Below, piece after piece: positions 13,669 to 19,628 of a stretch of DNA of 36,619 bases. The position numbers and the translations under genes are program-made. The first letter of the stretch is position 1. The number at the start of each line of letters is the position of its first letter. This DNA is from an uncultured Gammaproteobacteria bacterium. Lineage in GTDB: Bacteria > Patescibacteriota > Microgenomatia > UBA12405 > JAHJSD01. The DNA lies in assembly GCA_964505765.1 (NCBI GenBank), contig CAZDJQ010000002.1, positions 1 to 36,619 on the forward strand, given 5' to 3'. The notes below the pieces were generated by a model. The model was not told the origin of the DNA, searched no databases, and saw only the letters and a program-made list of their open reading frames with translations.

Positions 13669-13756
13669 GCCGCGGTGCTGGAATTGGCAGACAGGCTGGT
13701 CTCAAAAACCAGTGGTGTTTTACACCGTGACGGTTCAAATCCGTCCCGCGGCACCA
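13669..13756 (+). tRNA. tRNA-Leu (anticodon CAA), type II with long variable arm, encoded CCA
   Basis: Hand-folded cloverleaf: acceptor GCCGCGG/CCGCGGC, anticodon stem CTGGT/ACCAG with loop CTCAAAA, variable arm GGTGT-TTT-ACACC, T arm GACGG-TTCAAAT-CCGTC, discriminator A and CCA at 13754-13756. Confidence 0.92.
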
Positions 13757-13769
13757 GCAATAATTTTAA

Positions 13770-15092
13770 TTATTCTGAAACGCCAAAAAAGCTAATCTTC
13801 TGCGGATTAAAGTAAAATTCAAAACCACCCACCGGACCATTACGATGCTTGGCAATTTCACAATTAACCAACTCTCTGTTTTCTTCATCTTCCCGAAACA
13901 AAAAAGCAACTACATCGGCATCTTGTTCTATACTGCCGCTTTCTCTTAAGTCTGCTAGTTTCGGCCGAGACCCGCCGCGTTTTTCAACCGCTCGTGACAG
14001 CTGAGATAAAGATAAAACCGGCACTTTCATTTCTCTTGCTAAGTTTTTAAGACCTTGAGAAATATCAGATACCTCTTGCACTCGGCTGTCCCAACGCCGA
14101 GAAGGCCGCATCAACTGCAAATAATCAACAATTACTAATTTTAAATCCTGTTCAATCTGCAGCCGTCTTGCTTTAGTCCTCATCTCCATCATTGACATTG
14201 CCGGAGTATCATCAATAAAAAGTGGGGCTTCTGCTAATTCTCCCATTGCTTCTGACAAGCGTGACAAATCTCCGTCTTCCAAACGGCCAGTTTTCATTTT
14301 CCAGGAATCAATATTCGCCTGTCTAACCAACAACCGGTCGACTAATTCCTCTTTACTCATCTCCAGGGAGAAAAAACAAACCGGCAGATTATCTTCAACC
14401 GCCGCGTTCCGAGCAATATTTAAGGCTAAAGCTGTTTTCCCTACCCCGGGACGGGCAGCTAAAATAATTAAATTACTCGCCTGAAATCCAGCTAAATAAT
14501 CATCCAAATCTTTAAAACCACTGGAAACCCCCCGTAAACCGTCAGATTTTTTTTGTAATTCATCTAAACGATCGAAACTTTCAGCTAATGCTTCCCTTAA
14601 TGAGGTCGGCTTGTTTTGTAAATGCCCCTGGCTTAATTGAAAAACTTTACTTTCAGCAAGGTTCAAAATATCACTGACTTCTTCACCTTCATCAAATGCC
14701 GCTTGACTAATTTGATTTGCCGCCGAAATTAATCGCCTTTTCGTATATAAATCTTTAACTATCTGGGCGTAAGACAAAACATGAGCTGAAGTTGGAACAG
14801 AATTTGCCAACTCTGTTAAATAGGCCCGACCGCCGATTTTCTTCAACGCCTTTTTTTTCTTCAACCGCTCAGCCATGGTTATTAAATCAATCGGAACCCG
14901 CTCCTCAAATAATTCAAGCGCCGCTTCAAAAATCTCAGAATGGCCAGTTTCATAAAAATATTCTGGAAAAATAATATCGGCGATATCAACAATCGCATCT
15001 TTATCAATCAAGACCGCACCAAGCACAGAAACCTCGGCTTCTTTTGAATGGGGCGGGACTTTTAAACGCTGTGCAGAATTTCGCTGAGACAT
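13770..15092 (-). CDS. dnaB: replicative DNA helicase DnaB
   Basis: 440 aa with PPHSKEAEVSVLGAVL at the N-terminus, Walker A GARPGVGKT and collinear RecA-like motifs. Confidence 0.95.
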   Translation of the reverse strand: MSQRNSAQRLKVPPHSKEAEVSVLGAVLIDKDAIVDIADIIFPEYFYETGHSEIFEAALELFEERVPIDLITMAERLKKKKALKKIGGRAYLTELANSVPTSAHVLSYAQIVKDLYTKRRLISAANQISQAAFDEGEEVSDILNLAESKVFQLSQGHLQNKPTSLREALAESFDRLDELQKKSDGLRGVSSGFKDLDDYLAGFQASNLIILAARPGVGKTALALNIARNAAVEDNLPVCFFSLEMSKEELVDRLLVRQANIDSWKMKTGRLEDGDLSRLSEAMGELAEAPLFIDDTPAMSMMEMRTKARRLQIEQDLKLVIVDYLQLMRPSRRWDSRVQEVSDISQGLKNLAREMKVPVLSLSQLSRAVEKRGGSRPKLADLRESGSIEQDADVVAFLFREDEENRELVNCEIAKHRNGPVGGFEFYFNPQKISFFGVSE

Positions 15093-16942: not shown

Positions 16943-18181
16943 ATGACAAAAAAACTAAAACCGATCAAGGGGTTTAGAGATTTTTACCCTGAAGACTGGG
17001 CATTCCAAAACTGGCTAAAAAATACTTGGCTTAGGCTGGGAAAATCTTTTGGCTATCAAGAATACGAAGGCCCCTTATTGGAACCGATTGAACTTTATCT
17101 CTCTAAAACCAGCGAAGAGATTGTTCAAAAACAAACATTTAAGTTTTCAAAAAAGGGGAAAAAATATGTTTTACGGCCGGAATTAACTCCGACTCTCGCC
17201 CGGATGGTAGCGCAAAAACAATTTAAATTGAAGTTGCCGGCAAAATGGCAGTCTTACGGACAATTTTTCCGATATGAACAACCTCAGAAAGGCCGCGGCC
17301 GGTCCTTTTTCCAATGGAATATAGACTTATTAGGCTTAGAAAACAGCGAGGCCGATAGTGAAATCGTCGCTTTAGCCTGCTTATCACTTAAAAACCTGGG
17401 GCTTACGCCTGACGAGGTAGTAATCAAGCTAAATGACCGCCGCGAGTTGCAAAAGCAGAAAATTTCCAAAGATTTATTCCCCTACATTGACAAATTAACT
17501 AAAATGAATTTTAAAAAATGGCAGACCTGGCTGAAAGATGAAGGCGTCTCAACAAAAAAAATAAGGAAAATGGTCGAGTTTTTAAAGTCTGAAAATAATA
17601 ATTATTCCGATTATTTAAATAAAATTATAAAGAGCCTGGAAAAATACGGACTGGCCGATTATGTTAGGGTTGATAAAAGTCTGGTTCGCGGTTTGGATTA
17701 CTACACCGGAATTGTTTTTGAAGCTTGGAGTATAAATTCCTCATTAAACCGGGCTCTTTTTGGCGGCGGCCGATATGACAGCCTAACTCAGCAGGTGGGC
17801 GGGAAAAAACAAATTCCCGGCGTTGGATTTGCTGTCGGCGACCTGCCAATTTATGAACTACTCAAAGAAAAAGACAAACTCCCGGTTTTGGATTCCAACC
17901 CGACCCGGGTTTTAGTCACAGTCTTTTCTCCGGAAACGCAGGCCCAGGCTTTTAAAACTGCTCAGCAGCTGCGGCAAGCAGAAATCAATACGGAATTATA
18001 TCTTAAGCCTAATGACAACTTAGGAGACCAATTAGACTATGCTAATGATAAAAATATTCCCTACTCCATCATCCTCGGCCCGGAAGAAATTGAAAAAAAA
18101 GTCATCACTCTAAAAAACATGGAATCCGGAGAACAAGAAAAACTTTCTTTAAAACAAACAATAAAAAAACTATCTTCATAA
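16943..18181 (+). CDS. hisS: histidyl-tRNA synthetase
   Basis: 412 aa with KGFRDFYPED, LRPELTPTLARMV, GGGRYD and a C-terminal anticodon-binding domain. Confidence 0.93.
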   Translation: MTKKLKPIKGFRDFYPEDWAFQNWLKNTWLRLGKSFGYQEYEGPLLEPIELYLSKTSEEIVQKQTFKFSKKGKKYVLRPELTPTLARMVAQKQFKLKLPAKWQSYGQFFRYEQPQKGRGRSFFQWNIDLLGLENSEADSEIVALACLSLKNLGLTPDEVVIKLNDRRELQKQKISKDLFPYIDKLTKMNFKKWQTWLKDEGVSTKKIRKMVEFLKSENNNYSDYLNKIIKSLEKYGLADYVRVDKSLVRGLDYYTGIVFEAWSINSSLNRALFGGGRYDSLTQQVGGKKQIPGVGFAVGDLPIYELLKEKDKLPVLDSNPTRVLVTVFSPETQAQAFKTAQQLRQAEINTELYLKPNDNLGDQLDYANDKNIPYSIILGPEEIEKKVITLKNMESGEQEKLSLKQTIKKLSS

Positions 18182-18211
18182 ATTTATCTCCACGATCGTT
18201 GAGATAAATTT
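18180..18211. repeat. left copy of a 32-nt near-palindrome (hisS/prfA terminator) with ACGATCGT apex
   Basis: AAATTTATCTCCACGATCGTTGAGATAAATTT matches 18917-18948 at 30 of 32 positions and overlaps the hisS stop codon. Confidence 0.85.
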
Positions 18212-18246
18212 GACAAACTAATCTTCCTCAGTTAGAAATATAATAG

Positions 18247-18924
18247 ATGAAAAAAAGAGAATCAAAACTTTTAAAGACTCTCAGATTAGCTGACGATCTT
18301 ATGTTACTTTTTTATGATTATTTTGATCGAGACATTAGAAAACTACCAGACTTGGAAGATTTTCTTTATGCTGGCGTTGAATCCACCTCCTCTTACTTCA
18401 TTAAAAAGGGTATTCTCAATCCGGATTTAACATTTAGGGAAAGTCCCCAATCTGTTCTAAGGCTAATAAAAAAGCCATGGGATAAAAAATGGCGTTTTGT
18501 CGTTTTTGATATTCCTCAAGAAAATCGGACTATAAGAGATATAATCCGCCGTCGACTAAAAGAGTGGGGTTTTAAATTTTTCCAACGCTCCATTTGGTTT
18601 TCTCCCCTCCCTTTAACTAATAAAGTAAAACAACTAGATAAACATATTGATGACACGGATTATCTAACTATTATTGAAGGAACAATATTCCGTTGTAATC
18701 CGCAAAAACTTGTTGAAGAAAAATGGGAAATTAACAATTGGAAAACTAAAGCTCAAAATTGGTGTTCACAAATAAAAAACAAAAATAAGTTAACTAAAGA
18801 ATCACAAATTAAATTTTGGAATCTAATTGAATCCCATCCAAAAGTTCCTTTAGACCTTCTCCCACCTAATTGGCCACTTAAAAAAACATTTGAATTCTTT
18901 GCTAATAAAAAATTCAAAATTTAA
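18247..18924 (+). CDS. PaaX-like protein (Cas2-fold middle domain plus PaaX_C-like tail), paralog 2
   Basis: 225 aa. WDKKWRFVVFDIPQENRTIRDIIRRRLKEWGFKFFQRSIWFSP and HPKVPLDLLPPNWPLK align with the 6875-7540 protein. The flanking DNA of the two loci is not similar. Confidence 0.7.
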   Translation: MKKRESKLLKTLRLADDLMLLFYDYFDRDIRKLPDLEDFLYAGVESTSSYFIKKGILNPDLTFRESPQSVLRLIKKPWDKKWRFVVFDIPQENRTIRDIIRRRLKEWGFKFFQRSIWFSPLPLTNKVKQLDKHIDDTDYLTIIEGTIFRCNPQKLVEEKWEINNWKTKAQNWCSQIKNKNKLTKESQIKFWNLIESHPKVPLDLLPPNWPLKKTFEFFANKKFKI

Positions 18925-18948
18925 CTCCACGATCGTTGAGGTAAATTT
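18917..18948. repeat. right copy of the 32-nt near-palindrome
   Basis: AAATTTAACTCCACGATCGTTGAGGTAAATTT contains the paralog-2 stop codon (18922-18924) and ends on the first base of the prfA stop codon. Confidence 0.85.
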
Positions 18949-19628
18949 TACTTTATAAGGTGGAGATTGCCGTCTAGGACTTCTTCTAGTTGACGGGTCT
19001 TTTTATTCGTCCGATGATCAGTCACTCGATTTTGCTGAAAGTTATATGTCCTGATTTTATCCGACCGCCGCCCTCTTCCTGCTTTTTTCCTTATATTCCC
19101 CATATAGCCCTTCTTCTTAGCTTGTTTCCGCTCCCACATTTTACTAGCAAGCAGCTGCAAAGCAATCAGCCTGTTTTTCTGCTGACTTCTTTCTCTCTGA
19201 CACTCGACCGTTATTCCGGTTGATTTATGTTTAAGCCGGACTGCAGTCGATACTTTATTTACATTTTGACCGCCGGCACCGCCCGAGCGAAAAAACTCCC
19301 ACTCCAAATCCTCTTCTTTTATTTCTCCTTGGTTGACAATAACCTTAGGCATAACTACAACTACGGCAGTTGAAGTGTGAGTCCGACCGTGTTTTTCAGT
19401 TGCCGGCACCCGTTGAACTCGATGGGTTCCTGTTTCATTTCTCAACTCCAAAAAAGCATTTTTACCAACTACTTTAAGTTGTGATTCATCAATTTTACCT
19501 ACTTTCCAAGAGTTATTTTGGGCATAACGAAAATACATCCGGAATAGATCTTTAGCCCAAATTTTGGCCTCAGTTCCACCGGCACCAGGCTGAATCTCAA
19601 TAATAGCGATATTGGGGTTGATTTTCAT
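18948..19628 (-). CDS. prfA: peptide chain release factor 1, short form lacking the N-terminal domain 1
   Basis: 226 aa with RVPATE...GRTHTS (PxT-type codon recognition, hence RF1 rather than RF2), GGQ ([11 protein letters not shown]) and [17 protein letters not shown]. It starts 2 nt after the rpmE stop. Confidence 0.88.

What the first reader, a model, noticed from the sequence alone, without database searches (positions are those of the whole stretch)
18180..18948. A second, diverged PaaX-like gene shows the same architecture, and all four palindromes share an ACGATCGT apex
Seen: the near-palindrome AAATTTATCTCCACGATCGTTGAGATAAATTT (18180-18211, overlapping the hisS stop) recurs at 18917-18948 at 30/32 identity. 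The second copy overlaps the stop codon of the PaaX-like gene and ends on the first base of the prfA stop codon. Again a solo plus-strand gene sits between convergent housekeeping genes, with a 737-bp period. The arms of this palindrome are unrelated to those at locus 1 (about 5 of 11 matches by my alignment). However, the centre is the same 8-nt palindrome ACGATCGT (6816-6823, 7546-7553, 18192-18199, 18929-18936). By eye I found the exact 8-mer nowhere else in the window, and 4 of the 7 CGATCG sites in the window are these. The two proteins are clear paralogs but their flanking DNA is unrelated. This implies two independent events by one gene family that targets, or is captured at, hairpin apexes with a CGATCG/GATC core.
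Basis: partly seen in the sequence, partly recalled or inferred. Interest (0 to 1): 0.7.

Follow-up and report, generated by a model that had tools for sequence, protein, structure and literature searches.

The report
Palindrome-bracketed PaaX/Cas2-like repressor gene cassettes
Two small regulator-like genes in this window are each bracketed by two copies of their own long DNA palindrome, the same layout recurs in this gene family across many ultra-small (CPR) bacteria, and the gene-plus-palindromes unit is present or absent as a block between close relatives, so it behaves like a self-contained and possibly mobile module that I could not find described.

Summary
ACGATCGT occurs exactly four times in the window (0.19 expected), at the centres of two pairs of direct repeats. 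These are 53 nt at 98% identity and 35 nt at 91%, and each pair brackets a solo 221-225-aa gene.

The proteins are small PaaX-like three-domain proteins: winged helix, Cas2-like domain, helical domain. They keep Cas2 motifs that E. coli PaaX has lost.

The layout is a property of the family, not of this genome.
- All 8 close homologues in 4 related genomes have it.
- 28 of 70 wider family members have it, mostly in CPR bacteria, against 0 of 665 control ORFs.
- Long palindromes are almost absent elsewhere in the fetched DNA.

The arms differ between cassettes and follow the protein type. Only the centre is conserved, as R-C-N4-G-Y, and ACGATCGT is the commonest form.

The upstream copy always overlaps the -35 box of a promoter that starts almost at the ATG. 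Close relatives have clean empty junctions, a different paralogue in the opposite orientation at the same junction, a VapBC pair, or a solo palindrome remnant.

Best reading: an autoregulated DNA-binding protein flanked by its own operator-like sites, carried as an accessory cassette that turns over. The palindromes come with the gene and are not pre-existing target hairpins. I found no target-site duplication and no known transposase, so how the cassette moves is unresolved.

The parts
6799..6851 (.). Locus 1, upstream copy of the 53-nt repeat. The palindrome proper is 6802-6837, centre ACGATCGT at 6816-6823. It contains the last 3 codons and stop of gyrA. Its last bases are part of the -35 box TTGACT (6833-6838).
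6875..7540 (+). Cassette gene 1 (W1), 221 aa. It has a PaaX-like architecture with a central Cas2-like domain, and ends with S-V-K-stop copied from gyrA.
   Evidence: PaaX_M E 1.6e-23; CRISPR_Cas2 above cut-off; TIGR01573 32.5 bits against cut-off 24.5
7529..7581 (.). Locus 1, downstream copy of the 53-nt repeat (52 of 53 identical). The palindrome is 7532-7567. It contains the cassette gene's stop and the complement of the xerC stop (7576-7578).
18180..18214 (.). Locus 2, upstream copy of the repeat. The palindrome is 18180-18211, centre ACGATCGT at 18192-18199. It starts inside the hisS stop codon.
18210..18238 (+). Putative promoter of cassette gene 2. The -35 box TTGACA (18210-18215) overlaps the end of the palindrome, followed by a 17-nt spacer and the -10 box TAGAAA (18233-18238). 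The ATG lies 8 nt further, so the mRNA is leaderless or nearly so.
   Evidence: The same layout is seen in 9 of 10 close loci. It is a consensus match only, with no transcript data.
18247..18924 (+). Cassette gene 2 (W2), 225 aa, with PaaX-like architecture: a putative winged helix at 1-65, a Cas2-like domain at 76-148 and a helical C-terminal domain.
18917..18951 (.). Locus 2, downstream copy of the repeat. The palindrome is 18917-18948. It contains the cassette gene's stop (18922-18924) and the first base of the complement of the prfA stop. The -35 box is lost here (TTTTAC instead of TTTGAC).

Best explanation
Each locus is a self-contained accessory cassette. It consists of a palindrome, a promoter, a near-leaderless gene for a small PaaX-like protein, and the same palindrome again.

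I propose four steps, all inferred except where marked.

1. **Binding.** The protein dimer binds its own 32-46-bp palindrome. The winged helices read the variable outer arms, and the conserved Cas2-like dimer sits over the conserved R-C-N4-G-Y dyad.
2. **Autorepression.** Binding at the upstream copy covers the -35 box and represses the gene.
3. **Insulation.** Binding at the downstream copy, helped by the hairpin potential of the palindrome, blocks transcription running into or out of the cassette. The unit can then sit in very tight junctions between essential genes without harming them.
4. **Turnover.** The cassette is gained and lost as a block on short evolutionary time scales. Its two palindromes are kept alike by gene conversion, or by co-evolution with the protein.

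Shown here: the architecture, its specificity to the family, the promoter overlap, the conserved dyad, and the presence/absence and replacement between relatives. Inferred: that the protein binds the palindrome, the repression, the insulation, and the means of transfer.
For: **Protein**
- Pfam PaaX_M at E 1e-20 to 1e-23.
- A family profile hits E. coli PaaX (8A39) at E 1.8e-18 and Rv0674 (3KFW) at 4.5e-14 across the winged-helix, middle and C-terminal regions.
- An AF2 model (pLDDT 84.6) has 8A39 and 3KFW as best folds, followed by Cas2 structures.
- PaaX is an autorepressor whose operator is TGATTC-N27-GAATCA. That is a 39-bp span, the same scale as these palindromes (PMC9493321).

**Architecture**
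- All 10 close loci have the same palindrome before the promoter and at the stop codon.
- 28 of 70 wider family genes have it, against 0 of 665 control ORFs.
- 65 of 79 long palindromes in family loci lie within 200 nt of a family gene end, and only 3 occur in 523 kb of background.

**Promoter**
- In 9 of 10 close loci a -35 box TTGAC(A/T/C) starts in the last bases of the upstream palindrome, or within its 3' arm in L005. A 17-18-nt spacer and a -10 box follow, ending 5-8 nt before the start codon.
- In the wider family an extended -10 follows the palindrome.

**Palindrome belongs to the protein type, not the site**
- W2-type palindromes align in register across three genomic sites.
- The putative recognition helix changes together with the arm class, STSSYF with AAATTTA and TTYYF with AAAGATA. 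This is anecdotal.

**Conserved dyad**
- Position -3 is C in 44 of 46 loci and position -4 is a purine in 42 of 46.

**Turnover**
- The gyrA/xerC junction is empty in three relatives. It holds a W1-type gene in the window and L008, and a W2-type gene in the opposite orientation in L006 and L009.
- CAYXSV and CAZBPF differ by only 10% over six concatenated proteins, yet they differ at two of three sites.
- The hisS/prfA junction holds VapBC, nothing, or a solo palindrome remnant in other relatives.
- One cassette gene is frameshifted.
Against: - No binding, repression or termination was measured. Everything about the protein-DNA contact rests on analogy with PaaX and on position.
- A dimeric operator need not be palindromic through its whole length. 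Where the two copies differ, the changes are mirrored in both arms (L075, L049, L046, L010). That points to a constraint on the hairpin or cruciform itself, or to template-switch correction, rather than to simple half-site reading.
- The function of the downstream copy is a guess.
- The palindromes were not called as intrinsic terminators.
- No regulatory target other than the gene itself is visible in the window.
- The means of gain is unknown. There is no target-site duplication, no near-identical copies within a genome (paralogues are 39-62% identical), and no relatives in viral contigs.
- The empty hisS/prfA sites are confounded by a replacement of hisS.
Confidence: 0.5

Rival explanations
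1. The cassette is a true mobile element, and the palindromes are its recombination sites. The Cas2-like protein, or a host Xer-type tyrosine recombinase guided by it, cuts and rejoins at the conserved self-complementary centre. Recombination between the two copies would excise a circle carrying one palindrome and leave a solo palindrome. The reverse reaction would insert the cassette in either orientation.
For: - The family keeps the Cas2 beta-1 Asp (FDIP), the R..R motif and the QRSVW motif. E. coli PaaX and Rv0674 lack them.
- The only invariant DNA positions lie at the dyad.
- The same junction holds different paralogues in opposite orientations.
- A solo degenerate W1-type palindrome sits at the hisS/prfA junction of L166.
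- The two copies within a locus are 82-100% identical, except about 24 of 36 in L008, while orthologous palindromes are about 60% identical. This fits repeated excision and reintegration, or gene conversion.
- In many insertion sequences the -35 box of the transposase promoter lies in the left end, which gives autoregulation (my own knowledge).
- In L056 the palindrome is dispersed beyond the gene.
Against: - No recognised transposase or recombinase domain is present.
- No target-site duplication was found.
- No recent identical copies exist in any genome.
- The empty sites lack a palindrome to recombine with.
- Each palindrome is self-symmetric rather than a hybrid of two parents.
- At site 1 of L009 the inserted DNA extends about 35 and 50 nt beyond the palindromes.
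- Cas2 nuclease activity is dispensable in CRISPR adaptation (my own knowledge).
Confidence: 0.2
2. This is an ordinary host transcription factor with two operators. It was inherited vertically as three old paralogues and then lost differentially. It is not mobile and not selfish.
For: - W2-type proteins at the three sites are 53-67% identical to one another, with slightly higher values within a site.
- The site-3 cassette and its flanks diverge gradually between CAYXSV and CAZBPF, with no sharp break.
- In L056 the palindromes lie upstream of unrelated genes, as expected for a regulon.
Against: - Site 1 holds two different paralogues in opposite orientations in the two host clades, and is cleanly empty in a member of each clade.
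- Sister genomes only 10% apart differ at two sites.
- A W1-type palindrome remnant lies at the site that otherwise hosts W2-type cassettes.
- In the window no promoter other than the cassette's own lies next to a palindrome.
Confidence: 0.15
3. This is a single-chain toxin-antitoxin or defence module. The Cas2/VapD-like domain is a latent nuclease, the winged helix provides antitoxin-like autoregulation through the palindrome, and the C-terminal domain senses a trigger.
For: - Cas2/VapD motifs are retained.
- The fold matches Cas2 and VapD structures.
- The same junction carries a VapBC pair in CAYSLZ and CAZBPF.
- The cassette diverges faster than its flanks, about 66% against about 79% DNA identity.
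- The promoter carries a palindromic operator, as in type II toxin-antitoxin operons (my own knowledge).
Against: - PADLOC matches only Cas2 models, and weakly.
- No partner gene is present.
- This reading does not explain the downstream palindrome or the conserved dyad.
Confidence: 0.1
4. The palindromes are pre-existing terminator hairpins of the host genes, and the gene inserts at or is captured by them, duplicating the target.
For: - The 53-nt repeat at locus 1 includes the ends of both host genes.
- At locus 2 a short stretch flanking the insertion resembles the hisS/prfA overlap of the empty site (CTTCATAA against CTTTATAA, p = 0.04).
Against: - The empty junctions have no such palindrome.
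- Palindromes follow the protein type across sites.
- The palindromes are absent from other gene ends.
- There is no U-tract and no terminator call.
- G.T and A.C mismatches show no strand bias.
- The extension of the locus-1 repeat past the palindrome is homologous to the promoter spacer of the orthologous L008 cassette. It is therefore cassette DNA, not host DNA.
Confidence: 0.04

Closest known systems
PaaX, the phenylacetyl-CoA-responsive repressor of E. coli and Pseudomonas (PDB 8A39; PaaX-like Rv0674, 3KFW)
   Same: It has the same three-domain fold: winged helix, Cas2-like dimerisation domain and helical C-terminal domain. It represses its own promoter by occlusion. It recognises widely spaced inverted half-sites, TGATTC-N27-GAATCA.
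   Different: - These proteins are 220-225 aa against 316 aa for PaaX.
- They score 36-39 bits against an equivalog cut-off of 264.55.
- No paa genes are nearby.
- They keep Cas2 motifs that PaaX has lost.
- Their site is palindromic through the centre, with a conserved dyad.
- A second copy of the site follows the gene.
- The unit is an accessory cassette.
Cas2 and VapD (CRISPR adaptation subunit; toxin-type nuclease)
   Same: The middle domain matches Cas2 models. W1 is above the TIGR01573 and Pfam cut-offs. It keeps the beta-1 Asp and the QRSVW motif. The repeats are of CRISPR-repeat length and bracket an insert.
   Different: There is no cas1 next to the gene and no repeat array, only two copies. 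What would be the spacer is the gene itself. The Cas2-like domain is fused to a winged helix and a PaaX-type C-terminal domain.
REP/REPIN-RAYT systems and IS200/IS605 insertion sequences
   Same: A single small gene of about 0.7 kb is flanked on both sides by cognate hairpin-forming palindromes. The palindrome type is specific to the gene copy. In one genome (L056) the palindrome is also dispersed in pairs.
   Different: - There is no HUH/Y1 transposase domain.
- In most genomes sampled the palindromes occur only at the gene.
- The palindromes are perfect with zero spacer and lack the REP GTAG head.
- The upstream copy doubles as the operator and -35 box.
Type II toxin-antitoxin modules (for example VapBC) and other small accessory modules of intergenic hot spots
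   Same: The same junction is occupied by VapBC in relatives. The size is small, a palindromic site sits at the promoter, and divergence and turnover are fast.
   Different: It is one gene, not two. There is no evidence of toxicity. A second palindrome follows the gene.
Integron gene cassettes (attC) and Xer-dependent dif/pdif modules
   Same: Single genes are bounded by imperfect palindromic recombination sites, and cassette content varies at one site. The arm-centre-arm geometry resembles a tyrosine-recombinase core site. A Xer-type recombinase gene lies next to site 1.
   Different: There is no IntI, no attI and no array. The conserved part is the apex, not the base of the hairpin. The arms differ between cassettes of one genome, which a single host recombinase would not read. 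The xerC neighbour is a conserved housekeeping gene, also present at empty sites.

Membership tests
PaaX (TIGR02277 equivalog) | Whole-protein score above the curated cut-off | tested here: not met
   35.8 and 39.2 bits against a cut-off of 264.55
PaaX-like superfamily | Central Cas2-like PaaX_M domain, with three-domain fold similarity to solved PaaX structures | tested here: met
   - PF20803 at E 1e-20 and 1.6e-23
- profile against 8A39 at E 1.8e-18 and 3KFW at 4.5e-14
- Foldseek probability 1.0, TM 0.54-0.56
PaaX-like superfamily | Binds a palindromic operator at its own promoter and responds to an acyl-CoA ligand | not testable with these tools
   Only the position is shown: the palindrome overlaps the -35 box in 9 of 10 close loci. 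There are no paa genes next to either cassette. The neighbours are gyrA, xerC, hisS and prfA.
Cas2 (CRISPR adaptation) | Matches the Cas2 model above its cut-off | tested here: inconclusive
   W1 scores 32.5 bits against a cut-off of 24.5 (met). W2 scores 19.1 bits (not met).
Cas2 (CRISPR adaptation) | Lies beside cas1 and a CRISPR array | tested here: not met
   The neighbours are gyrA, xerC, hisS and prfA. There are only two repeat copies, 730-737 bp apart, and no repeat array appears among the listed repeat families. The other window ORFs were not scanned for cas1.
Insertion sequence / DNA transposon | Recognised transposase domain (DDE, HUH, serine or tyrosine) | tested here: not met
   Pfam, NCBIfam and PADLOC give only PaaX_M and Cas2 hits.
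Insertion sequence / DNA transposon | Target-site duplication flanking the ends | tested here: not met
   2 of 35 loci and 1 of 36 loci reach p <= 0.05. The longest flank matches equal those of mismatched pairs.
Insertion sequence / DNA transposon | Several near-identical copies in a genome | tested here: not met
   Copies within one genome are 39-62% identical at protein level. Only partial genomes were available.
REP/REPIN-RAYT | Gene flanked by cognate hairpin repeats that are also dispersed through the genome | tested here: inconclusive
   Flanking is met. Dispersal is seen only in L056. No other copies occur in about 214 kb from close relatives. Whole genomes were not available.
REP/REPIN-RAYT | HUH/Y1 nuclease | tested here: not met
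   No such domain is detected, and there is no His-hydrophobic-His motif among the conserved columns.
Integron cassette | attC sites, an adjacent intI and attI, and a cassette array | tested here: not met
   The genes are solo, with only one family gene per locus. The neighbouring recombinase is a conserved Xer homologue that is also present at empty sites.
Intrinsic (rho-independent) terminator | G+C-rich stem followed by a U-tract | tested here: not met
   The scan does not call the palindromes as terminators. The stems are A+T-rich. Mismatch types show no strand bias. A weak terminator role is not excluded: the W1 copies are followed by TTTTT or TTTTC.
Type II toxin-antitoxin | Two-gene toxin plus antitoxin operon | tested here: not met
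   It is a single gene with its own promoter.

The most novel reading that the evidence does not exclude
This is a previously unrecognised class of minimal mobile element. A winged-helix plus Cas2-like protein, with the Cas2 active-site Asp retained, recognises its own two flanking palindromes. It cuts or synapses them at the conserved R-C-N4-G-Y dyad. Rejoining at the self-complementary 4-nt centre would excise a circle with one palindrome, leave a solo palindrome behind, and allow reinsertion in either orientation. Such a system would also be a living intermediate between Cas2/VapD nucleases and PaaX-type repressors. It would parallel the way Cas1-Cas2 duplicates a palindromic repeat around inserted DNA.
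Probability: 0.2. Interest if true: 0.9.

Novelty: new variant of a known kind. Interest (0 to 1): 0.7.

Why it matters
- **An overlooked rule in CPR genomes.** Transcription factors and mobile elements are thought to be scarce in CPR (Patescibacteria) genomes. Here a large family shows a strict and previously unremarked genomic rule: the gene sits between two copies of its own long palindrome with a conserved dyad. The profile finds 4782 clusters at 50% identity. Many of these are annotated Cas2 or PaaX.
- **If the conservative reading holds.** It would be a compact design for a self-insulated, autoregulated gene that can live between overlapping essential genes.
- **If the bolder reading holds.** It would be a new kind of mobile element built on a Cas2-like domain. 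That bears directly on how Cas2, VapD toxins and PaaX repressors are related.
- **Easy to test.** Each protein comes with its presumed cognate DNA site printed on both sides of its gene. Binding, cleavage and specificity-swap experiments are therefore straightforward.
- **Annotation.** Many of these genes are named CRISPR-associated Cas2 although no CRISPR system is nearby.

Tried and rejected
1. **Target-site duplication.** I searched next to the palindromes and within 45 nt of them. There is no signal above shuffled or mismatched controls. The single CTTTACT match in L009 is what chance gives.
2. **A strand-specific RNA hairpin.** G.T mismatches number 13 and A.C mismatches 20, so there is no bias towards the sense strand.
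3. **Known RNA families or tRNA integration sites.** The only Rfam hit is a tRNA at 13669-13753, far from both loci.
4. **Phage carriage.** No relative was found in the viral contig collection.
5. **A mini-CRISPR reading.** There are only two repeats, no cas1 next to the gene, and the supposed spacer is a conserved gene.
6. **Generic terminators.** Rejected.
7. **Metagenome scan with prfA, to find empty sites.** It gave only relatives about 50% identical, which I used as background DNA. The empty sites came from exact-protein look-ups instead.
8. **First structure model from 11 sequences.** It was too poor to use, pLDDT 57. A 62-sequence alignment gave pLDDT 84.6.
9. **A sharp divergence break at the cassette borders of site 3.** None was found, only faster divergence.
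10. **The empty hisS/prfA site as clean evidence.** It is weakened because those genomes carry a different hisS, only 39-40% identical. The gyrA/xerC site is not affected.
11. **Literature.** Searches combining PaaX, Cas2-like, palindrome and CPR terms found no description of this architecture.
Full report
**1. The observation**

- ACGATCGT occurs four times in 36.6 kb, at 6816, 7546, 18192 and 18929. Expectation is 0.19, and no shuffle out of 100 reaches four.
- CGATCG occurs seven times. It is not enriched by itself.
- The four sites are the centres of two pairs of direct repeats. One pair is 53 nt at 98% identity, 730 bp apart (6799-6851 and 7529-7581). The other is 35 nt at 91% identity, 737 bp apart (18180-18214 and 18917-18951).
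- Each repeat is a near-palindrome that folds on either strand as an 11-bp outer stem, one mismatch, a short inner stem and a GATC loop.
- Each pair brackets one plus-strand gene, 6875-7540 and 18247-18924. The first lies between gyrA and a Xer-type recombinase gene. The second lies between hisS and a short prfA.
- The downstream copy at locus 2 contains the gene's stop codon and ends on the first base of the prfA stop.
- At locus 1 the repeat runs from the last three codons of gyrA to the stop of xerC. The cassette gene therefore ends with gyrA's own S-V-K-stop.

**2. The proteins**

The two proteins are 39% identical.
- Both match the Pfam model PaaX_M, the central Cas2-like domain of PaaX, at E 1e-20 and 1.6e-23. 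Both match Cas2 models more weakly, and W1 is above the Cas2 cut-offs.
- They are far below the PaaX equivalog cut-off, so they are not PaaX orthologues.
- A profile of 62 family members hits E. coli PaaX (8A39) at E 1.8e-18 and Rv0674 (3KFW) at 4.5e-14 over nearly the whole length.
- An AlphaFold model (pLDDT 84.6) has these two as its best structural matches, followed by a long list of Cas2 structures and VapD.
- The family keeps the sequence hallmarks of Cas2: W-R-x-V-x-F-D-I-P on strand 1, the R..R helix and Q-R-S-V-W. E. coli PaaX and Rv0674 have lost them.
- The superfamily is large, with 4782 clusters at 50% identity at E <= 1e-3. The close subfamily is small, with 14 clusters at E <= 1e-30.
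- The nearest named relatives of the flanking housekeeping genes are CPR Microgenomates such as Shapirobacteria and Gottesmanbacteria.

**3. The architecture is a family trait**

A scan of one genome per species returned 80 loci. The eight closest come from four genomes, two per genome as in the window.

All eight have a 32-36-nt palindrome about 30-40 nt before the start codon. The same palindrome recurs at or just after the stop codon, wherever the contig reaches that far; L005 ends before it.

In the wider set, which is mostly CPR lineages plus some Verrucomicrobiota, 28 of 70 testable genes have a downstream palindrome with an upstream copy at 65% identity or more. Nineteen of these are at 80% or more. 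None of 665 control ORFs of similar size in the same DNA has this arrangement.

Long zero-spacer palindromes are otherwise rare.
- 65 lie within 200 nt of a family gene end.
- 14 lie elsewhere in 810 kb of family loci.
- 3 lie in 523 kb of unrelated background loci.
- In about 214 kb from the close relatives, every palindrome with this type of centre flanks a cassette.

**4. What is conserved in the DNA**

The arms differ from cassette to cassette. The centre does not: position -3 is C in 44 of 46 loci and position -4 is a purine in 42 of 46. This gives R-C-N-N|N-N-G-Y. ACGATCGT is simply the commonest version (12 of 46), ahead of GCATATGC, GCGATCGC and ACGGCCGT. The shared apex of the two window loci is therefore a family feature, not a property of this genome or of GATC.

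Where the two copies of one locus differ, the differences are mirrored in both arms, so each copy stays a palindrome (L075, L049, L046, L010). The symmetry or hairpin potential itself is maintained, either by selection or by template-switch correction.

Mismatches show no bias towards G.T on the sense strand. Nothing therefore points to a strand-specific RNA structure.

**5. The promoter**

In 9 of 10 close loci a -35 box TTGAC(A/T/C) begins in the last bases of the upstream palindrome; in L005 it lies within the 3' arm. A 17-18-nt spacer follows, then a -10-like hexamer ending 5-8 nt before the start codon. The mRNA would be leaderless or nearly so. W1 has the same -35 box but a weaker -10.

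In the wider family an extended -10 follows the palindrome within a few bases. The downstream copy usually stops being identical exactly where the -35 box would be. These are consensus matches, not transcript data, but the position is what is expected of an autorepressor's operator.

E. coli PaaX represses its own promoter by occlusion. Its site is TGATTC-N27-GAATCA, a 39-bp span (PMC9493321). That matches the 32-46-bp span found here.

**6. The palindrome belongs to the cassette, not to the site**

Synteny shows three sites in this clade.

| Site | Junction | Occupants found |
|---|---|---|
| 1 | gyrA/xerC | W1-type, co-directional with gyrA (window, L008). W2-type in the opposite orientation (L006, L009; 56-61% identical to W2 and 37-41% to W1). 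Empty, with 2-22 nt between the stop codons and no palindrome (L169, L170, L171). |
| 2 | hisS/prfA | W2-type cassette (window, L002, L003). VapB-like plus PIN pair (two genomes). Nothing, with hisS and prfA overlapping by 12 nt (L165). Solo degenerate palindrome whose right arm resembles the W1-type palindrome of L008 (L166). |
| 3 | inside a co-directional gene run | W2-type cassette, antisense to the run (L004, L005, L007). |

W2-type palindromes from all three sites align in register, with outer arms AAATTTA, AAAATAA or AAAGATA.

A tree from six housekeeping proteins puts the window with CAZHXO and Ga0374083. CAYXSV is the sister of CAZBPF at only 10% distance. Those two sisters nevertheless differ at site 1 (empty against filled) and at site 2 (cassette against VapBC). 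One cassette gene (L006) is frameshifted while its palindromes match at 32 of 32.

One caveat applies. The genomes with an empty site 2 carry a very different hisS, 39-40% identical, so that site is confounded by a gene replacement. Site 1 is not.

**7. Concerted evolution and the long repeat at locus 1**

Orthologous palindromes are only about 60% identical between genomes. The two copies within a locus are 82-100% identical in nine of the ten close loci, and about 24 of 36 in L008. They are therefore homogenised, by gene conversion, by co-evolution with the protein, or by re-duplication.

At locus 1 the repeat extends 14 nt past the palindrome. This extension is homologous to the promoter spacer of the orthologous cassette in L008. 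It is cassette DNA that now supplies the xerC stop codon, not duplicated host DNA.

**8. Tests for known kinds of mobility**

- No target-site duplication was found, either next to the palindromes or within 45 nt of them.
- No transposase, HUH, serine or tyrosine recombinase domain is present in the protein.
- There are no near-identical copies within a genome.
- No relatives were found in viral contigs.
- There are no arrays.
- At site 1 of L009 the DNA absent from the empty relative extends about 35 and 50 nt beyond the palindromes.
- At site 3 the cassette diverges faster than its flanks, about 66% against about 79% DNA identity, but without a sharp break.
- Family-wide, genomic contexts are mixed. 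In 25 loci both neighbours are co-directional, 15 lie between a convergent pair, and 11 have a divergent and a convergent neighbour.
- In one Jorgensenbacteria locus (L056) the cassette's palindrome also occurs as two tandem pairs upstream of unrelated genes. It could be a regulon operator or a dispersed REP-like repeat.

**9. Interpretation**

The reading that fits most of the evidence has three parts.
- An autoregulated PaaX-like DNA-binding protein has its cognate site on both sides of its gene.
- The upstream copy acts as an operator over the -35 box.
- The downstream copy is most plausibly a second binding site that insulates the unit from its neighbours.

The whole unit behaves as an accessory cassette that turns over at a few intergenic hot spots. 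I give this about 0.5.

The more novel alternative is that the palindromes are recombination sites cut or synapsed at the conserved dyad by the Cas2-like domain or by a host recombinase. I give it about 0.2. It is supported by the retained Cas2 motifs, the dyad-only conservation, the opposite orientations at one site and the solo remnant. It lacks any direct evidence.

Three further readings score lower:
- a purely vertical host regulator, about 0.15
- a fused toxin-antitoxin or defence module, about 0.1

**10. Novelty**

Six literature searches found no description of this arrangement. The protein fold and the idea of an autorepressor with a palindromic operator are known. The strict bracketing by two copies of a full-length palindrome with a conserved dyad is, as far as I could find, not described. 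The same goes for its spread through CPR genomes, the retained Cas2 motifs and the cassette-like turnover. I file it as a new variant of a known kind, with a real chance of being something more.

Noticed in passing
window 16943-18181 (hisS); L165 4670-5923; L166 4759-6009: The hisS gene next to prfA comes in two very different types among close relatives. It is 64-71% identical to the window's in five genomes but only 39-40% identical in Ga0374083 and CAZJMH. In those same two genomes prfA, xerC and gyrA are 73-88% identical. This looks like a xenologous replacement of an aminoacyl-tRNA synthetase gene in place.
   Followed up: partly
L162 4726-5362; L164 3515-4151: In two related genomes the hisS/prfA junction carries a VapB-like gene (86 aa) plus a PIN-domain gene (127 aa) instead of the cassette, with no palindromes. 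The junction is a hot spot for small accessory modules.
   Followed up: partly
window 13770-15092; L165 7822 onwards: DnaB is 440 aa in the window. In the close relative Ga0374083 it is 874 aa, with an intein and a LAGLIDADG endonuclease domain. This is an intein presence/absence difference.
   Followed up: no
window 18948-19628: The release factor is only 226 aa, with a partial PCRF domain plus the RF-1 domain. It has this length in the whole clade and in many CPR relatives. Some sources name it 'peptide chain release factor-like'.
   Followed up: no
window 1030-1059: A perfect 30-nt palindrome, TGTAGGGACAGGTCGCGACCTGTCCCTACA, lies just after ORF 31-1026. It is a single copy, with a different centre type from the cassette palindromes.
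   Followed up: no
L056 317-424, 3087-3196, 4947-4982: In a Jorgensenbacteria contig the cassette's palindrome (centre GCCATGGC) also occurs as two tandem pairs about 70 nt apart, upstream of unrelated genes. A further solo palindrome with a family-type centre (ACGGCCGT) lies between two other genes.
   Followed up: partly
L006 6001-6705: The cassette gene in CAYSLZ is frameshifted near codon 128. This is either a pseudogene or an assembly error. Its two palindromes are identical over 32 nt.
   Followed up: no
L002-L009 (record titles): The four closest genomes are titled 'uncultured Gammaproteobacteria'. Their gene content and nearest named homologues are CPR/Microgenomates, so the labels look wrong.
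   Followed up: no
P0018, P0026 and similar proteins (about 170-aa family members): Many shorter family members in CPR genomes are annotated 'CRISPR-associated endonuclease Cas2'. The ones examined sit between palindromes rather than in CRISPR loci, so this is probably systematic mis-annotation.
   Followed up: partly
L001 1-66: An independent assembly of the same organism (Logan SRR7048220) breaks inside the upstream palindrome of locus 2. This is as expected for a repeat longer than the assembler's word size. It is not evidence of excision.
   Followed up: no
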